Below are positions 3,154 to 49,141 of a DNA stretch of 64,000 nucleotides, piece after piece. Source of the DNA: Escherichia coli (lineage in GTDB: Bacteria; Pseudomonadota; Gammaproteobacteria; Enterobacterales; Enterobacteriaceae); the NCBI RefSeq assembly GCF_051903065.1, contig NZ_CP178438.1, one strand, 5' to 3'. The position numbers and the translations under genes are program-made. The notes under the pieces are model-generated. The model worked only from the letters and a program-made list of their open reading frames with translations, did no database searches and was not told where the DNA came from. Positions within the stretch are counted from its first letter, which is position 1. Each line of letters begins with the position of its first letter.

Positions 3154-5898
3154 TCAAATCGCGTTCAGGTCTTTCTTATGCAACCATGCTTCCAGAGCGG
3201 CAACACTGCGTGTAATTTCTTCGTGTGGAAGGGGGGCAGATAATGGCTGCTGCTCCAGTTGTGCGCATATCTGGCTGGCGACACGCATTCCCAGACTCGA
3301 GCAACTGCTTTTTAACTGATGCGCGGCACGCTTTATTTTCTCGCTATCCTGACTGGCGCGGGCAATGTCGATTTCATCGAGAAGCGGCAGGGCATGTTGT
3401 TTAAATAATGCCAGCCATTCGTGGATCTTCTCTGTCCCCATTAACTGAGCGTCTTCATTGAGTTGCGAGACATCCAGTGGTAGATCGTTATTGGCTTGCA
3501 GTTGGAGATAGTGCGCCAGTAACTGACCGAGCACTTCACGCGGCACCGGTTTAGGGATAATCCCGCGAAATAGTAAACTGGTACGCTGGCGCAGCGTTTC
3601 GTCAATGACATGGGCGCTAAAGCCAATCAAAACCAGCGACGGATATTGCTGTGCCAGTTGCCGGGCAAGGGTAATGCCGTCGATATCCGGCAGATCAAAA
3701 TCCACCAGTGCGGCAGCAAACGGTTCGCTATTTTGCAGTGTCTCTAAAGCCTGCGCGGCATTGCCAATAGCAACAACCTGCGCACCACTGGTGTTCAGCA
3801 TCTCAACGGTAATTCGCTGGGTTAGCGGGTTATCTTCAATTAACAGCAAACGTAAACCGTCAAGACGCACCGCCTGATTGACTGTTTTTGGCACGGGTGC
3901 CGTGGCAACACGTAACGGCAAGCGTAAACAAAAACAGCTTCCAACCTCCGGCGTGCTGGTGGCGCTCAGTTCGCCGCCCATCGCCTGGGCCAGACGGCTA
4001 CTGATAGTCAGCCCCAGCCCGGTGCCGCCGCGTTTGCCGCTTACCTGCACAAATGGCTGGAAGATTTCTGCCAGTTTCGCGGGATCAATACCGCAGCCGC
4101 TGTCTTCCACTTCGACCAGCCATTGCTCGCCATCAGTGCGGCTACGTAAAACGATCTGCCCTTCGTCAGTAAAACGTAGGGCGTTGCTCAACAGGTTGGT
4201 TATAACCTGACGAATACGTCGCGGATCGCCCATTAACGCAGTCGGTACATCGTCGGCCATTTCAGTTGTCAGGCGAATCGGCCGACCTTTCACCCGTCCG
4301 CTCATTAATTGCAGGGTACTTTCCAGCAGCGGGCGCGGTTCAAAGGGCTCATCGCTGACCGAAACATTCTTGCCACCTGCTTCGATAGCGGAATAATCGA
4401 GAATATCGTTGAGGATGGTCAGCAACGATTCGCCGGAGTCGGTAATTGCCCGCAAATCATCACGCTGGGCGTTAAGTGCGGGGTTATCTGCCAGTAGCTG
4501 TGCGGTGCCGAGAATACCGTACAGCGGTGTGCGGATCTCATGGCTCATCGCCGCCAGAAACGCCGATTTTGCCTGGCTGGCTTTTTCTGCTTCCGCCCGT
4601 GCTTGTCGGTGTTCTATCACCAGTTCCTGCAATTCAGCTGTACGCGCTTTGACCTGTGCCGCCAGCTGTTCGCGGTGGCGATTCAGTGCATGAACACTGC
4701 TGCGAAACGCATCCATCAGCCGCCCGATGGTGTCCAGCTCCCGTACACCAGCGGTTTCCGGGAAAGGGGAGTCAATATCACCGTCCAGCAGCCGTTGCAG
4801 CGCCTGCGTTTGTTCGGCAAGTGGACGCGTGACTGAGCGATAAACCACGCGCCAGAGGATCAGAATCAGTGCGCAAAGTGAAACCATCCCCAGCAATAAC
4901 AGGCTGTATTGCCCGCGTGCACTGGCTTTTTCCAGATGCGCCAGTCCATGCTGATTGCGCAGCTCAATGGTGTCGACCAGCTGACTGACTTCGCTACTAA
5001 ACAGCGCGAACTGGGCGATATTATTTTGGGCGAGAGTTTGCAGGTGATTGCTGATTTCACTGTCCTGCTGGAACAGCGCCAGCAAATCGCTATATTGGCT
5101 AACGGTAGTTAACGTTGTTGCGACCTGCGCACGAACTCCCGGATCTTCAATGCGTATTTGCCGACGTTGCAGAATTTTCACCGCATTATTGAGCTGCTTT
5201 TCCAGCGTTGGTGCATTTTTCTGGAGCTGCTCCAGCCCCAGATTCATCACCATTTGCTGCACCCGCAGAGCGCTAAGGCGCAGTTCATTCATCTGGTTAA
5301 CATACTCAAGATCGATATCAATCAGCCGATCGAGTGCACTTTCAGCAGCCTGACGCTGATGTTGTTCGATCAAATCGTAAATCCCGGCCTGGGTCGCTCC
5401 GGCGGAGGTTGCCGCATTATTCGCCTGACCTTGCGCCAGGCGTGCGATCTCATCGGCGGCAGCGACTATCTGCTGACTGAGTTGCTGTTGTTGCTGGCGC
5501 AGTTGCAAACGCTGCCCCACCAGTTCCCCTTGCTGACGTAACGAACGGGAGATCTCCTGCTCCTGTTGTTCAATAGCGGTGGTATCAAAACCTTGTTCCC
5601 GTAACGCTTGCAGCAACGCATTAATCTTCAGGCTTTGTGCGGTGAGCATTCGCCCCTGCGCCTGCCACATCTTTTCGTTATCGGCACTGGTCAGGTTCTG
5701 CGCGGCGAAAAGTTCCCAGGCGCTGGCTTCGCTCAACTGGCGCGCCATATTCATGGTAGGAATCAATGCCTGAGTATTGTCTTTTTCCACCTGGCTGATA
5801 AAGCGCAGGTTGTACCATCCCACCAGGGTACTGGTCAGGGTTAACAGCGCCATCAGGGCAAAGCCCATCCAGAGTCTTCGGGTCAGGGTTAAATTCAC
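3154..5898 (-). CDS. torS: Hybrid sensor histidine kinase TorS (TMAO sensing)
   Basis: 914-aa ORF with periplasmic domain, HisKA H-box ([11 protein letters not shown]), ATPase, receiver (LLIEDNPL...DFDLPDIDG) and C-terminal HPt domain; sits beside torT and torR. Confidence 0.93.
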
Positions 5899-5980
5899 GG
5901 TCGGTGCACTTTAGGTGAAAAATGTTGAGTCGCAAAGCGGAATGCATCTAGCATAAAGTCTTATTATTGATGAGGCTATC

Positions 5981-7009
5981 ATGCGCGTACTGCTATTTTT
6001 ACTTCTTTCCCTTTTCATGTTGCCGGCATTTTCGGCTGATAACCTGTTGCGCTGGCATGATGCGCAGCATTTCACGGTGCAAGCCTCTATGCCGCTAAAA
6101 GCCAAACGCGTATGGAAACTGTGCGCGCTTTATCCCAGCCTGAAAGATTCATACTGGTTATCGTTGAACTATGGTATGCAGGAGGCTGCTCGCCGCTACG
6201 GTGTGGATTTAAAAGTGCTGGAGGCAGGCGGCTACAGCCAGTTGGCTACCCAGCAAGCACAAATCGACCAGTGTAAACAGTGGGGCGCAGAGGCCATTTT
6301 GCTCGGTAGTAGCACGACGTCATTTCCCGATCTGCAAAAGCAGGTAGCAAGTCTGCCGGTGATCGAACTGGTAAATGCTATTGATGCTCCCCAGGTGAAA
6401 AGCCGCGTTGGTGTACCCTGGTTTCAGATGGGCTATCAACCTGGGCGATATCTGGTGCAATGGGCGCACGGTAAACCACTGAACGTGCTGTTGATGCCCG
6501 GACCCGATAACGCCGGGGGCAGTAAGGAGATGGTCGAGGGTTTTCGCGCAGCCATTGCCGGAAGCCCGGTGCGTATTGTTGATATTGCGCTCGGTGATAA
6601 CGATATTGAAATCCAGCGTAACCTGTTGCAGGAGATGCTGGAACGCCATCCAGAAATCGACGTCGTTGCCGGAACGGCCATTGCGGCAGAGGCGGCAATG
6701 GGTGAAGGGCGCAACCTGAACACGCCGCTTACCGTGGTGTCGTTTTATCTTTCACATCAGGTGTATCGCGGGCTGAAGCGGGGAAGAGTGATTATGGCTG
6801 CCAGCGATCAAATGGTCTGGCAGGGGGAACTGGCGGTTGAGCAGGCCATCAGGCAGTTACAGGGGCAATCGGTGTCTGATAATGTCAGCCCACCGATTTT
6901 AGTTCTGACGCCGAAAAATGCCGACCGAGAACATATCCGCCGCTCGCTGTCACCGGGGGGATTTCGTCCGGTCTATTTTTATCAGCACACATCAGCGGCT
7001 AAGAAATAA
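5981..7009 (+). CDS. torT: Periplasmic TMAO-binding protein TorT
   Basis: 342-aa ORF with signal peptide MRVLLFLLLSLFMLPAFSA and a periplasmic-binding-protein fold; divergent from torS. Confidence 0.9.
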   Translation: MRVLLFLLLSLFMLPAFSADNLLRWHDAQHFTVQASMPLKAKRVWKLCALYPSLKDSYWLSLNYGMQEAARRYGVDLKVLEAGGYSQLATQQAQIDQCKQWGAEAILLGSSTTSFPDLQKQVASLPVIELVNAIDAPQVKSRVGVPWFQMGYQPGRYLVQWAHGKPLNVLLMPGPDNAGGSKEMVEGFRAAIAGSPVRIVDIALGDNDIEIQRNLLQEMLERHPEIDVVAGTAIAAEAAMGEGRNLNTPLTVVSFYLSHQVYRGLKRGRVIMAASDQMVWQGELAVEQAIRQLQGQSVSDNVSPPILVLTPKNADREHIRRSLSPGGFRPVYFYQHTSAAKK

Positions 7010-7674
7010 CCTTCGCCATGTTGTGTCACCAGTAAATCCGCGCTGAGTTTATGGCGTAAACGACGAATTAACACATCGACGGTGCGCAGGTCAGGGTTTT
7101 CCACCCGACGCGCAGAGAGCATACGCAGCAGACGTTCACGGCTGAGAATTTCTCCCGGATTCGTCACAAATGCCACCAACATTTCATACTCTGCGCGGGT
7201 CAGTTTAATCGGCTCACCATCCCGCTCCAGCGTATGGCGCGACACATTCAGGCAATAACCCGCAAAGCGATAGCAGTTGTCCTGAGTGAGCGGTTGAACT
7301 TGTCGCGCGAGGTCGATTCGCCAGAGCAGATTTTTTACCCGTACTACCAGTTCGCGCAGTTCCAGCGGTTTGGTGACGTAATCGTCTGCGCCCATTTCCA
7401 GCCCAACAATACGGTCAATCCGATCGCTGCGTCCGGTAACCAGAATAATCCCCACCGTTGAGCGTTCTCGCAGGGCGCGGGTTAACATCAGGCCATTTTC
7501 ATCGGGCAAGTTGATATCCAGCAGAATTAAATCCACCGGCTGATTCTGCATAATTTCCCGTAGCCCGGCACCGCTCGCCGTAACGGAAACGGTATACCCC
7601 TCCTGAGTGAAGTAGGATTGTAATCGCGCCTGGGTAACCGGCTCATCTTCAACAATAACAATGTGATGTGGCAT
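6982..7674 (-). CDS. torR: Response regulator TorR (OmpR family)
   Basis: 230-aa ORF MPHHIVIVEDEPVTQARLQSYF... with receiver plus winged-helix domain; its 3' end overlaps the torT 3' end by 28 bp. Confidence 0.93.
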   Translation of the reverse strand: MPHHIVIVEDEPVTQARLQSYFTQEGYTVSVTASGAGLREIMQNQPVDLILLDINLPDENGLMLTRALRERSTVGIILVTGRSDRIDRIVGLEMGADDYVTKPLELRELVVRVKNLLWRIDLARQVQPLTQDNCYRFAGYCLNVSRHTLERDGEPIKLTRAEYEMLVAFVTNPGEILSRERLLRMLSARRVENPDLRTVDVLIRRLRHKLSADLLVTQHGEGYFLAADVC

Positions 7675-7692
7675 CAGAGGGTTTTACTCATT

Positions 7693-7755
7693 CTGTTCAT
7701 ATCTGTTCATATTCTGCCGTAAGCCATTCATCCTGACCAGTGCCGCTGTTCATAT
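7693..7755 (+). promoter_or_regulatory. torCAD promoter tor boxes (TorR binding decamers CTGTTCATAT)
   Basis: Exact CTGTTCATAT at 7693-7702, 7703-7712 and 7746-7755, with a degenerate copy (cattcatcct) near 7725-7734, directly upstream of torC. Confidence 0.85.
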
Positions 7756-7803
7756 TTGCTCATTAAGATCGCTTCACTAAACCATAATTTTACAGGGGCT
7801 ATT

Positions 7804-8976
7804 ATGCGGAAACTCTGGAACGCGCTACGCCGACCCAGTGCTCGTTGGTCGGTACTGGCGCTGGTCGCTATTGGGATTGTGATTGGCATTGCGCTGATTG
7901 TATTGCCACACGTTGGGATCAAAGTCACCAGCACAACCGAATTTTGTGTCAGTTGCCACAGTATGCAACCGGTGTATGAAGAATATAAACAGTCGGTGCA
8001 TTTCCAGAACGCCTCCGGCGTGCGAGCTGAATGCCATGACTGTCATATCCCGCCGGATATTCCAGGCATGGTGAAGCGCAAACTGGAAGCGAGCAACGAC
8101 ATTTACCAGACCTTTATTGCTCACTCCATTGATACACCTGAAAAATTCGAAGCCAAACGCGCGGAACTTGCCGAGCGTGAATGGGCGCGAATGAAAGAAA
8201 ACAACTCGGCAACCTGCCGCTCCTGCCATAACTACGACGCGATGGATCATGCGAAGCAGCATCCTGAAGCGGCACGTCAGATGAAGGTGGCAGCGAAAGA
8301 TAATCAATCCTGCATCGACTGTCATAAAGGTATTGCCCACCAGTTACCGGATATGAGTAGCGGCTTCCGTAAGCAGTTCGATGAGCTGCGCGCCAGTGCT
8401 AATGACAGTGGTGACACGCTGTACTCTATTGATATTAAGCCGATTTATGCGGCGAAAGGCGATAAAGAAGCCTCTGGTTCTCTGCTGCCTGCTTCGGAAG
8501 TGAAAGTCCTTAAACGTGACGGCGACTGGCTGCAAATTGAAATTACCGGCTGGACAGAAAGCGCCGGACGTCAGCGTGTACTCACCCAATTCCCAGGTAA
8601 ACGCATCTTTGTTGCCTCGATTCGTGGTGATGTGCAGCAGCAGGTGAAAACGCTGGAGAAAACCACCGTTGCCGACACCAATACCGAGTGGAGCAAGTTG
8701 CAGGCCACCGCGTGGATGAAGAAAGGCGACATGGTGAACGATATCAAACCGATCTGGGCTTATGCGGATTCGCTGTACAACGGCACCTGTAACCAGTGCC
8801 ACGGCGCACCGGAAATCTCCCACTTTGACGCTAACGGTTGGATCGGCACGCTCAACGGCATGATTGGCTTTACCAGCCTCGATAAACGTGAAGAACGCAC
8901 CTTGTTGAAATATCTGCAAATGAATGCGTCTGACACCGCAGGTAAGGCTCACGGCGATAAGAAGGAAGAAAAATAA
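7804..8976 (+). CDS. torC: Pentahaem c-type cytochrome TorC
   Basis: ATG 7804 (MRKLWNALRRPSARW...) inside track ORF 7756..8976; several CxxCH haem motifs (CVSCH, CHDCH, CRSCH, CIDCH, CNQCH). Confidence 0.92.
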   Translation: MRKLWNALRRPSARWSVLALVAIGIVIGIALIVLPHVGIKVTSTTEFCVSCHSMQPVYEEYKQSVHFQNASGVRAECHDCHIPPDIPGMVKRKLEASNDIYQTFIAHSIDTPEKFEAKRAELAEREWARMKENNSATCRSCHNYDAMDHAKQHPEAARQMKVAAKDNQSCIDCHKGIAHQLPDMSSGFRKQFDELRASANDSGDTLYSIDIKPIYAAKGDKEASGSLLPASEVKVLKRDGDWLQIEITGWTESAGRQRVLTQFPGKRIFVASIRGDVQQQVKTLEKTTVADTNTEWSKLQATAWMKKGDMVNDIKPIWAYADSLYNGTCNQCHGAPEISHFDANGWIGTLNGMIGFTSLDKREERTLLKYLQMNASDTAGKAHGDKKEEK

Positions 8977-11522
8977 TGAACAATAACGATCTCTTTCAGG
9001 CATCACGTCGGCGTTTTCTGGCACAACTCGGCGGCTTAACCGTCGCCGGGATGCTGGGGCCGTCATTGTTAACGCCGCGCCGTGCGACTGCGGCGCAAGC
9101 GGCGACTGAGGCTGTCATCTCGAAAGAGGGTATTCTTACCGGGTCGCACTGGGGGGCTATCCGCGCGACGGTGAAGGATGGTCGCTTTGTGGCGGCAAAA
9201 CCGTTCGAACTGGATAAATATCCGTCGAAAATGATCGCCGGATTGCCGGACCACGTACACAACGCGGCGCGTATTCGTTATCCGATGGTACGCGTGGACT
9301 GGCTGCGTAAGCGCCATCTGAGCGACACCTCCCAGCGCGGTGATAACCGTTTTGTGCGTGTGAGCTGGGATGAAGCCCTCGACATGTTCTATGAAGAACT
9401 GGAACGCGTACAGAAAACTCACGGGCCGAGTGCCTTGCTGACCGCCAGTGGTTGGCAATCGACGGGGATGTTCCATAACGCTTCGGGGATGCTGGCGAAA
9501 GCTATTGCCTTGCATGGTAATAGCGTTGGTACGGGCGGAGATTACTCTACTGGTGCTGCGCAGGTGATCCTGCCGCGCGTAGTCGGTTCGATGGAAGTGT
9601 ATGAACAGCAAACCTCCTGGCCGCTGGTATTGCAGAACAGCAAAACCATTGTGCTGTGGGGCTCCGATTTGCTGAAAAACCAGCAAGCGAACTGGTGGTG
9701 CCCGGATCACGATGTTTATGAATATTACGCGCAGTTGAAAGCGAAAGTCGCCGCCGGTGAAATTGAGGTCATCAGCATCGATCCGGTTGTCACATCCACC
9801 CATGAGTATCTGGGGCGCGAGCATGTGAAGCACATTGCGGTTAACCCGCAAACTGACGTGCCGCTGCAACTGGCGCTGGCGCATACGCTGTACAGTGAAA
9901 ACCTGTACGATAAAAACTTCCTCGCTAACTACTGTGTGGGTTTTGAGCAGTTCCTGCCGTATCTGCTGGGTGAGAAAGACGGTCAGCCGAAAGATGCCGC
10001 ATGGGCTGAAAAACTGACCGGCATTGATGCCGAAACCATTCGTGGACTGGCGCGGCAGATGGCGGCGAACAGAACGCAGATTATTGCTGGCTGGTGCGTA
10101 CAGCGTATGCAGCACGGTGAACAGTGGGCGTGGATGATTGTGGTTCTGGCGGCGATGCTGGGGCAAATTGGCCTGCCAGGTGGTGGCTTTGGTTTTGGCT
10201 GGCACTATAACGGCGCAGGCACGCCGGGGCGTAAAGGCGTTATTCTGAGTGGTTTCTCCGGCTCTACGTCGATTCCGCCTGTTCACGACAACAGTGATTA
10301 CAAAGGCTACAGCAGCACCATTCCGATTGCCCGTTTTATCGATGCGATCCTCGAACCGGGGAAAGTGATCAACTGGAACGGTAAATCGGTAAAACTGCCG
10401 CCGCTGAAAATGTGTATTTTTGCCGGAACTAACCCATTCCATCGCCATCAGCAGATCAACCGCATTATTGAAGGCTGGCGCAAGCTGGAAACGGTTATCG
10501 CCATAGATAACCAGTGGACCTCAACCTGCCGCTTTGCCGATATCGTGCTGCCTGCGACCACGCAGTTTGAGCGTAACGATCTCGACCAGTACGGCAACCA
10601 CTCCAACCGTGGCATTATCGCCATGAAACAGGTCGTGCCGCCGCAGTTCGAGGCGCGCAACGACTTTGATATTTTCCGTGAGCTGTGCCGCCGCTTTAAT
10701 CGCGAAGAAGCCTTTACCGAAGGGCTGGACGAAATGGGCTGGCTGAAACGCATCTGGCAGGAAGGTGTTCAGCAAGGCAAAGGACGCGGCGTTCATTTGC
10801 CAGCGTTTGATGACTTCTGGAATAACAAAGAGTACGTCGAGTTTGACCATCCGCAGATGTTTGTTCGCCACCAGGCATTCCGCGAAGATCCGGATCTCGA
10901 ACCGCTGGGCACGCCGAGTGGCCTGATTGAGATCTATTCGAAAACCATCGCCGATATGAACTACGACGATTGTCAGGGGCATCCGATGTGGTTTGAGAAA
11001 ATCGAACGCTCCCACGGTGGGCCTGGCTCGCAGACGTATCCGTTGCATCTGCAATCTGTGCATCCGGATTTCCGACTTCACTCGCAGTTATGTGAGTCGG
11101 AAACTCTGCGTCAGCAATATACGGTAGCGGGTAAAGAGCCAGTGTTCATTAACCCGCAGGATGCCAGCGCGCGCGGTATTCGTAACGGTGATGTGGTACG
11201 CGTCTTTAACGCCCGTGGTCAGGTGTTGGCAGGGGCAGTAGTTTCTGATCGCTATGCACCCGGCGTGGCGCGAATTCACGAAGGGGCATGGTACGATCCA
11301 GATAAAGGCGGCGAGCCTGGTGCGCTGTGCAAATACGGTAACCCCAACGTGTTGACCATCGACATCGGTACTTCGCAGCTGGCGCAGGCGACCAGTGCGC
11401 ACACTACGCTGGTGGAAATTGAGAAGTACAACGGAACAGTGGAGCAGGTAACGGCGTTTAACGGCCCCGTGGAGATGGTGGCGCAGTGCGAATATGTTCC
11501 CGCGTCGCAGGTGAAATTATGA
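8976..11522 (+). CDS. torA: TMAO reductase TorA (molybdoenzyme, Tat-exported)
   Basis: 848-aa ORF with twin-arginine signal [18 protein letters not shown]; start overlaps the torC stop (TAATG). Confidence 0.95.
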
Positions 11523-49040: not shown

Positions 49041-49141
49041 ATAATTAACCAATATTGGAATGTTTTTTTATTGCCTTAAAATATAAACAAAGCCATCAGA
49101 AGGTTATTATCTGATGACAAGCGCAATGATCAACACTACTG

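What the first reader, a model, noticed from the sequence alone, without database searches (positions are those of the whole stretch)
7693..7755. Tor boxes readable upstream of torC
Three exact CTGTTCATAT decamers and one degenerate copy form the direct-repeat array bound by phospho-TorR. torR lies immediately upstream on the opposite strand, so the same array sits in the torR–torC divergent region.
Basis: established knowledge. Interest (0 to 1): 0.2.

Follow-up and report, generated by a model that had tools for sequence, protein, structure and literature searches.

The report
TorR binding boxes upstream of torC
This is the well-known set of four short repeats ("tor boxes") between the E. 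coli genes torR and torC, where the regulator TorR binds to switch on TMAO respiration; it is ordinary, apart from a harmless-looking single-base variant in the weakest repeat.

Summary
CTGTTCATAT occurs exactly three times in the 64-kb window, at 7693-7702, 7703-7712 and 7746-7755 on the + strand (0.13 expected by chance). A degenerate copy, CCATTCATCC, lies at 7724-7733. All four sit in the 129-bp spacer between torR (6982-7674, - strand) and torC (7804-8976, + strand).

The window is E. coli, 99.99% identical to strain 23CRST027. NCBIfam equivalog models identify TorS, TorT, TorR, TorC and TorA. The array differs from K-12 at one base in 63. Box starts are 10, 21 and 22 bp apart, which puts them on one face of the helix.

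A scan of 100,044 species genomes left box 3 unconstrained. It found the same array upstream of torC homologues in eight genera. The span was 61 nt in 18 of 19 loci, and the TTCAT core of box 3 was kept in nearly all of them.

Published work shows TorR binding here: EMSA, genomic SELEX and a chromatographic binding assay.

TorR binds this spacer with or without phosphorylation; phosphorylation is reported to matter for activation at boxes 3-4.

The only new detail is box 3 itself. The window has CCATTCATCC (6 of 10 matches), an allele found in about 2% of complete E. coli genomes. K-12 and 94% of genomes have CCGTTCATCC.

Already known; low interest.

The parts
7693..7702 (+). tor box 1 (CTGTTCATAT), the distal half of the box 1-box 2 tandem
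   Evidence: Exact match. Conserved across 8 genera, majority fraction 0.97, though partly constrained by the search pattern. Same sequence as the published box 1.
7703..7712 (+). tor box 2 (CTGTTCATAT), directly abutting box 1. Together they read TTCATA-N4-TTCATA.
   Evidence: Exact match. Majority fraction 0.95. Published box 2.
7724..7733 (+). tor box 3, the degenerate copy CCATTCATCC (6 of 10). It carries a minority allele, A at 7726, where K-12 has G.
   Evidence: The TTCAT core is invariant in 8 of 8 genera although the search pattern did not constrain it. The K-12 allele CCGTTCATCC gives an exact 63-bp array in 5,101 records; the window allele does so in 106.
7746..7755 (+). tor box 4 (CTGTTCATAT), the promoter-proximal box. 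It ends 8 nt upstream of the torC -10 hexamer, in the position a -35 element would occupy.
   Evidence: Exact match. Majority fraction 0.91. There is no -35-like hexamer at 7740-7747 and no consensus sigma-70 promoter.
7764..7769 (+). Probable torC -10 hexamer TAAGAT. The transcription start is inferred near 7776-7777.
   Evidence: PMC10845959 places the torC -10 region on TTGCT(nnnn)AAGAT, which is 7756-7769 here. The TA..AT pattern is conserved at a fixed distance from box 4 across genera. The start-site position is inference.
7711..7739 (-). Inferred torR promoter on the - strand: -35 TGGTCA (7739 to 7734), a 17-nt spacer, and -10 CAGAAT (7716 to 7711). The start would fall near 7704, inside boxes 1-2.
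   Evidence: Read from the sequence. TGACCAGTG in the box 3-box 4 spacer is conserved only in the Enterobacterales, where torR abuts box 1 (17-21 nt). It is absent in Grimontia and Shewanella, where torR does not abut. This is inference. It agrees with my recollection of Ansaldi 2000, which I could not retrieve.
7675..7803 (.). The 129-bp torR-torC divergent intergenic region that holds the whole array and both promoters
6982..7674 (-). torR, an OmpR/PhoB-family response regulator (230 aa)
   Evidence: NCBIfam NF008034 TorR equivalog, 425 bits against a cutoff of 275, full length. Annotation.
7804..8976 (+). torC, pentahaem c-type cytochrome and first gene of torCAD
   Evidence: NF011606, 883 bits against a cutoff of 455. 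Annotation. The TTG at 7756 that the ORF listing reports is not the real start.
8976..12118 (+). torA (8976-11522, TMAO reductase) and torD (11519-12118, chaperone), the rest of the regulated operon
   Evidence: TorA equivalog at 1,617 bits. Annotation.
3154..7009 (.). torS (3154-5898, - strand; sensor kinase) and torT (5981-7009, + strand; periplasmic TMAO-binding protein), the signal input to TorR
   Evidence: Equivalogs NF008543 at 1,894 bits and NF008185 at 493 bits. Annotation.

Best explanation
The repeats are the tor boxes, the operator and activator-site array of the E. coli torR-torCAD divergent control region. TorR is an OmpR/PhoB-type winged-helix response regulator that recognises the TTCAT-containing decamers as direct repeats. 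Boxes 1 and 2 abut (TTCATA-N4-TTCATA) and form the strong site. Because the torR start codon is only 18 nt away, TorR bound there also sits on the torR promoter and start region and represses torR. This happens whether or not TorR is phosphorylated. When TMAO is sensed by TorT and TorS, TorR is phosphorylated and also fills the weak box 3 and box 4. These lie 21 and 43 bp downstream of box 2, on the same helical face. Box 4 takes the place of a missing -35 element, 8 nt upstream of the -10 hexamer TAAGAT, so bound TorR recruits RNA polymerase to torCAD. Shown here: the sequence, position, phasing, gene identities and cross-genus conservation. Taken from papers read here: TorR binds these boxes, box 3 binds poorly on its own, and binding occurs with and without phosphorylation. 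From memory of papers not held, or inferred: the split into high-affinity and low-affinity sites, cooperative filling, and the exact promoter hexamers and start sites.
For: The exact decamers are clustered (3 found, 0.13 expected). They lie in the spacer between genes matching the TorR and TorC equivalog models, as annotated. The array matches K-12 at 62 of 63 bases and is present in 5,415 of 5,426 complete E. coli genomes. Box starts are 10, 21 and 22 bp apart. The genome scan found 19 tor-linked loci in 8 genera, with a 61-nt span in 18 of them. The unconstrained box 3 kept TTCAT in 17 of the 19 and TTCAC in 2. Only 1 of 29 chance matches had TTCAT at that offset. Boxes are better conserved than spacers (0.81-0.97 against 0.68-0.70). 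No sigma-70 consensus promoter is present, as expected for an activator-dependent promoter. Literature: EMSA of TorR on boxes 1, 2 and 4, with no shift on box 3 alone (PMC9239176); TorR-P binding to the E. coli torCAD promoter and no binding by ArcA-P or FNR (PMC10845959); a single genomic SELEX peak at torR/torCAD with and without acetyl phosphate (PMC5934670); negative autoregulation of torR (PMC9436347; PMC5294996).
Against: No result contradicts it. Several limits apply. The primary footprinting papers (Simon 1995; Ansaldi 2000) could not be read, so footprint limits and start sites were not compared base by base. Box 3 here matches only 6 of 10 positions and could bind more weakly than the K-12 version. 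The conservation figures for boxes 1, 2 and 4 are inflated because the search pattern required them. No binding was measured on this strain's DNA.
Confidence: 0.97

Rival explanations
1. The decamers are a chance or low-complexity repeat with no function.
For: With 2 mismatches allowed, the motif is no more common in the window than chance. The same search pattern gave 29 chance matches in AT-rich genomes.
Against: Three exact copies lie within 63 bp against 0.13 expected in 64 kb. The same array with the same span sits upstream of torC in 8 genera, and its unconstrained third box is conserved. TorR binding is published.
Confidence: 0.005
2. The repeats are sites for another regulator, such as ArcA (the closest paralogue of TorR), FNR or NarL, rather than for TorR.
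For: TorR's second-best NCBIfam match is ArcA. PMC10845959 notes putative ArcA-like motifs overlapping the TorR sites and a weak FNR-like motif over the -10 region. NarL is listed as a negative regulator of torCAD.
Against: In the same paper ArcA-P and FNR did not bind the torCAD promoter while TorR-P did. TorR genomic SELEX peaks here. NarL repression, if direct, would add to TorR binding rather than replace it.
Confidence: 0.02
3. The array is genuine, but the G-to-A change in box 3 (7726) weakens the low-affinity site enough to lower or delay torCAD induction in this lineage.
For: Box 3 drops from 7 of 10 to 6 of 10 matches. It is already the weakest box, with no shift on its own in EMSA. 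The allele is rare, giving 106 exact arrays among 5,415 records.
Against: Position 3 varies naturally between G and A in boxes of other species: CCATTCATAT in Serratia box 2, CCATTCATAT in Providencia and Serratia box 4, CATTCAT in Serratia and Shewanella box 3. The invariant TTCAT core is intact. All tor genes in the window are full length.
Confidence: 0.12

Closest known systems
E. coli K-12 tor boxes in the torR-torCAD control region (Simon et al. 1995; Ansaldi et al. 2000)
   Same: Same locus, same genes, same four boxes with the same spacing and orientation. The array matches at 62 of 63 bases, and the 129-bp spacer differs at 3 positions in all.
   Different: Box 3 is CCATTCATCC here and CCGTTCATCC in K-12. 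Two further SNPs lie in the torC leader, at 7790 and 7799.
Salmonella enterica tor boxes (PMC9239176)
   Same: Boxes 1, 2 and 4 are the identical decamer CTGTTCATAT. Spacing and the divergent torR-torC layout are the same.
   Different: Salmonella box 3 is CCGTTCATCC or CCGTTCATTC. The spacers and the leader diverge.
Pho boxes and other OmpR/PhoB-family direct-repeat operators
   Same: Direct repeats about one helical turn apart are recognised by a winged-helix response regulator. The promoter-proximal repeat replaces the -35 element a few bases upstream of the -10 hexamer (sequence reading; family knowledge).
   Different: The consensus differs (TTCAT core). Four boxes are arranged as one tight tandem plus two single boxes two helical turns apart. 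The array is shared with a divergent autoregulated regulator gene.
Shewanella tor box (TTCATA-N4-TTCATA upstream of torECAD; from memory of Bordi et al. 2004, not read here)
   Same: The box 1-box 2 tandem here reads exactly TTCATA-TCTG-TTCATA. Shewanella benthica loci found here carry the same array with the same 61-nt span.
   Different: No torR is adjacent in S. benthica, and a roughly 310-nt gap precedes torC.

Membership tests
tor boxes (TorR operator of torCAD) | Three copies of the decamer CTGTTCATAT plus one degenerate copy, all as direct repeats | tested here: met
   Searches show three exact copies and CCATTCATCC, all on the + strand.
tor boxes (TorR operator of torCAD) | Located in the short divergent torR-torC intergenic region | tested here: met
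   The spacer is 129 bp (7675-7803) between torR on the - strand and torC on the + strand.
tor boxes (TorR operator of torCAD) | Boxes on the same helical face (spacing in multiples of about 10.5 bp) | tested here: met
   Starts at 7693, 7703, 7724 and 7746 give intervals of 10, 21 and 22 bp. The overall 61-nt span is kept in 18 of 19 tor-linked loci.
tor boxes (TorR operator of torCAD) | An intact cognate TorR, TorS and TorT system is encoded alongside | tested here: met
   All give full-length equivalog matches above the curated cutoffs.
tor boxes (TorR operator of torCAD) | Orthology with the experimentally studied K-12 array | tested here: met
   The array matches at 62 of 63 bases. It is present in 5,415 of 5,426 complete E. 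coli genomes.
tor boxes (TorR operator of torCAD) | Physical binding by TorR (footprint or EMSA) and dependence of torCAD induction on the boxes | not testable with these tools
   Only literature on K-12 and Salmonella is available. The primary footprint papers are not held.
OmpR/PhoB-type activator site replacing the -35 element | The proximal repeat abuts the -10 region and no -35 hexamer is present | tested here: met
   Box 4 ends 8 nt before TAAGAT. The hexamer at the -35 position (7741-7746, TGCCGC) matches 1 of 6, and the consensus scan finds no promoter.
ArcA box | Binding by ArcA-P | not testable with these tools
   Literature only: ArcA-P did not bind the torCAD promoter (PMC10845959).
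Moco riboswitch (considered for the adjacent torC leader, not for the boxes) | Match to the Rfam Moco RNA motif, or unusually stable leader structure | tested here: not met
   No Rfam match other than a chance IsrR hit at E = 1.3. The leader fold has a z-score of -0.37.

The most novel reading that the evidence does not exclude
The box 3 allele CCATTCATCC (A at 7726) is carried by about 2% of complete E. coli genomes, including some O157:H7 and O145 strains. It could be a natural cis-regulatory variant that weakens cooperative filling of boxes 3-4 by phospho-TorR and so shifts the threshold or level of TMAO-induced torCAD expression in these lineages.
Probability: 0.12. Interest if true: 0.2.

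Novelty: already known. Interest (0 to 1): 0.07.

Why it matters
It matters little beyond correct annotation. The tor boxes are a textbook-level example of a response regulator using one repeat array both to repress its own gene and to activate a divergent operon. It documents that the four-box layout, with its 61-nt span and fixed box 3 position, is conserved from Escherichia to Grimontia and Shewanella benthica. It also records a minority box 3 allele that could be used to probe how much the weak box contributes to induction.

Tried and rejected
1. I tried to read the primary papers: Ansaldi 2000 by DOI and by PMC94371, Simon 1994 (PMC196761) and Ansaldi 2001 (PMC95190). None is held. The published footprints therefore could not be compared base by base, and secondary sources were used instead.

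2. The sigma-70 consensus scan of 7550-7900 found nothing. The promoter hexamers given here are read by eye, from PMC10845959 and from conservation.

3. I considered a fifth box at 7756-7765 (TTGCTCATTA, 6 of 10, 10 bp after box 4). It was rejected because its core is not conserved in other genera. That stretch holds the -10 region instead.

4. I considered the minus-strand 6-of-10 matches at 7701, 7731, 7754 and 7786. They were rejected as chance or as overlaps with the + strand boxes.

5. The idea of weak partner half-sites at about 7714 and 7735, which would make three tandem dimers, has no sequence support (4 of 10 matches or fewer) and was not pursued.

6. Rfam gave only a sub-threshold IsrR match at E = 1.3, and the torC leader fold had a z-score of -0.37. 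Neither supports the riboswitch suggested in PMC10845959.

7. I first assumed the window was the same strain as hit H1. This was wrong outside the 701-bp query. The true near-identical genome is NZ_AP045789.1.

8. My first guess at the K-12 coordinates was wrong and was corrected.

Full report
**Observation.** The + strand at 7693-7755 reads CTGTTCATAT CTGTTCATAT tctgccgtaag CCATTCATCC tgaccagtgccg CTGTTCATAT. The exact decamer occurs three times in the whole 64-kb window on either strand, at 7693, 7703 and 7746. Chance expectation is 0.13, and no shuffle out of 100 reached three. With up to two mismatches the motif is at background level (69 found, 55 expected), so the signal is the local cluster. 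The degenerate copy is CCATTCATCC at 7724-7733. It matches 6 of 10 positions and keeps the TTCAT core.

**Context.** The window is E. coli. A 701-bp piece around the array is found in 5,417 of 5,426 complete genomes and is always annotated torR and torC. The whole window is 99.992% identical to strain 23CRST027 (NZ_AP045789.1 1398518-1462517). That record's annotation gives torS 3154-5898 (-), torT 5981-7009 (+), torR 6982-7674 (-), torC 7804-8976 (+), torA 8976-11522 and torD 11519-12118. NCBIfam equivalog models confirm TorR (425 bits, cutoff 275), TorC (883, cutoff 455), TorA (1,617), TorT (493) and TorS (1,894), all full length. The array therefore sits in a 129-bp divergent spacer. Box 1 begins 18 nt from the torR start codon, and box 4 ends 48 nt before the torC start codon.

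**Comparison with the reference.** The spacer differs from K-12 MG1655 at three positions. Position 7726 is A where K-12 has G, and it lies in box 3. Positions 7790 and 7799 lie in the torC leader. The K-12 form of the 63-bp array (box 3 = CCGTTCATCC) is exact in 5,101 of 5,415 E. coli records. The window's form is exact in 106, including some O157:H7 and O145 strains. The published Salmonella boxes are CTGTTCATAT for boxes 1, 2 and 4 and CCGTTCATCC for box 3 (PMC9239176).

**Conservation beyond E. coli.** I scanned one genome per species (100,044 species) with GTTCATANNNNTTCATATN{25,45}TTCATAT. This pattern fixes boxes 1, 2 and 4 loosely and leaves box 3 and the spacing free. Of 48 loci, 19 have a TorC homologue immediately downstream in the same orientation.

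- They come from Escherichia, Salmonella, Enterobacter, Serratia, Edwardsiella, Providencia, Grimontia and Shewanella benthica.
- Eighteen of the 19 span exactly 61 nt, as in the window. Grimontia hollisae spans 62 nt.
- In the Enterobacterales a TorR homologue starts 17-21 nt from box 1 on the other strand.
- In two of the three Grimontia species (G. hollisae, G. marina) torR lies about 220 nt away. For G. celer the stored locus ends just upstream of the array. In S. benthica no torR is adjacent.
- The other 29 matches are in AT-rich Firmicutes and Bacteroidetes genomes, have spans from 50 to 70 nt and have no Tor genes nearby.

At the box 3 offset, 17 of the 19 tor-linked loci have TTCAT and two have TTCAC. 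Only 1 of the 29 chance matches has TTCAT there. With one sequence per genus, the TTCAT core of box 3 is invariant in 8 of 8. The spacers are much less conserved, with majority fractions of 0.68-0.70 against 0.81-0.97 for the boxes. A divergent locus in the E. coli collection (80.5% identical) keeps the same layout, with CCATTCATAT as box 2 and CTATTCATAT as box 4. Position 3 of the decamer thus varies naturally between G and A, so the window's box 3 allele is probably tolerated.

**Mechanism.** Box starts are 10, 21 and 22 bp apart, which is close to whole helical turns. No consensus sigma-70 promoter is present. PMC10845959 places the torC -10 region on TTGCT(nnnn)AAGAT, which is 7756-7769 here, so TAAGAT at 7764-7769 lies 8 nt after box 4. 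The hexamer at the -35 position (TGCCGC) matches 1 of 6. This is the layout of an activator-dependent promoter in which the proximal repeat replaces the -35 element, as at pho boxes (family knowledge).

On the - strand I read a plausible torR promoter: -35 TGGTCA (7739-7734), a 17-nt spacer and -10 CAGAAT (7716-7711). The start would fall near 7704, inside boxes 1-2. In support, TGACCAGTG in the box 3-box 4 spacer is conserved only in the genera where torR abuts the array. This reading is inference. It agrees with my recollection of the Ansaldi 2000 abstract, which states that the box 1-box 2 region covers the torR start and is the high-affinity site, that boxes 3 and 4 are low-affinity sites filled cooperatively by phosphorylated TorR, and that the boxes must lie on the same helical face. 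I could not retrieve that paper.

The papers I could read show the following.

- TorR shifts boxes 1, 2 and 4 with Kd of 1-3 uM and does not shift box 3 alone.
- TorR-P binds the E. coli torCAD promoter, while ArcA-P and FNR do not.
- Genomic SELEX gives a single TorR peak in the K-12 genome, at the torR/torCAD spacer. The peak appears with and without acetyl phosphate and is higher with it.
- torR is negatively autoregulated.

**Verdict on the interpretation.** It is supported. The one correction is that binding is not restricted to phospho-TorR. Phosphorylation is reported to matter for activation through boxes 3-4, not for occupancy of boxes 1-2.

**Rejected side ideas.** A fifth box at 7756-7765 is not conserved. 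The proposed bis-MGD riboswitch in the torC leader has no Rfam match, and the leader folds no better than shuffled sequence (z = -0.37).

**Novelty and interest.** This is a known element at its known locus. The only new details are the minority box 3 allele and the documented reach of the four-box layout into Vibrionaceae and Shewanella benthica. Interest is low.

Noticed in passing
window 7726 (box 3): The window has A where K-12, Salmonella and 5,101 of 5,415 E. coli records have G. Box 3 is therefore CCATTCATCC (6 of 10) instead of CCGTTCATCC (7 of 10). The window's exact array occurs in 106 records, including some O157:H7 and O145 strains.
   Followed up: yes
window 12149-13580: A 1,432-bp IS1397 (IS3 family) copy lies between torD and cbpM. 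It is inserted in the middle of a REP-like palindrome (GCCTGATAAGACGCGTTT / AGCGTCGCATCAGGC) with a TTT target duplication. Strain Res13-Sevr-PER07-33 has the empty site. Insertion into palindromic units is the known habit of IS1397 (from memory).
   Followed up: partly
window 13574-13583: A 9-of-10 tor-box look-alike, CTGTTCATTT, is created at the junction of the right end of IS1397 with the duplicated TTT. It is almost certainly fortuitous.
   Followed up: no
window 7790 and 7799 (torC leader): Two SNPs relative to K-12 (T for C, and C for T) lie in the 5' leader, where PMC10845959 proposes a bis-MGD-responsive riboswitch. Rfam finds nothing there, and the leader folds no better than shuffles.
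   Followed up: partly
L002 (NZ_ABACVG020000001.1 4453621-4456321): A genome labelled E. coli (strain 2020CK-00188) has a tor locus only 80.5% identical. There torS directly abuts torR on the same strand with no torT in between. Boxes 2 and 4 are CCATTCATAT and CTATTCATAT. It may be a mislabelled species or a foreign tor locus.
   Followed up: partly
L011, L032, L037 (Grimontia); L031, L050 (Shewanella benthica): The full four-box array with the same 61-62-nt span sits upstream of torC homologues that are only 36-53% identical. torR is about 220 nt away in G. hollisae and G. marina and is not adjacent in S. benthica (upstream DNA is not held for G. celer L037 or S. benthica L031). In S. benthica a gap of about 310 nt precedes torC, which is room for torE.
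   Followed up: partly
window 7756-8976: the ORF listing reports the torC reading frame from a TTG at 7756, which would put the 'start' inside the promoter next to box 4. The real start is the ATG at 7804, preceded by AGGGG.
   Followed up: yes
E. coli genome collection: Six matches to the torR-torC region lie on plasmids, some genomes have two copies, and 9-11 of 5,426 genomes lack it.
   Followed up: no
window about 49140-51330: By the annotation of the near-identical strain, this stretch holds a frameshifted YqeJ-family gene, a truncated winged-helix gene, a frameshifted IS1A transposase and a tRNA-Ser. It looks like a decayed insertion site next to a tRNA.
   Followed up: no
L007, L009, L015, L019, L029, L033, L034, L042: Eight of the chance matches, from MAGs labelled Bacilli/Bacillales, Clostridia, Tenericutes or uncultured bacterium, share nearly the same 50-nt sequence (GTTCATAnGTATTCATATTCATGAATGTATA...). 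They are homologous to each other and unrelated to tor. L004 (Flavobacterium) is a perfect 10-bp tandem repeat.
   Followed up: no
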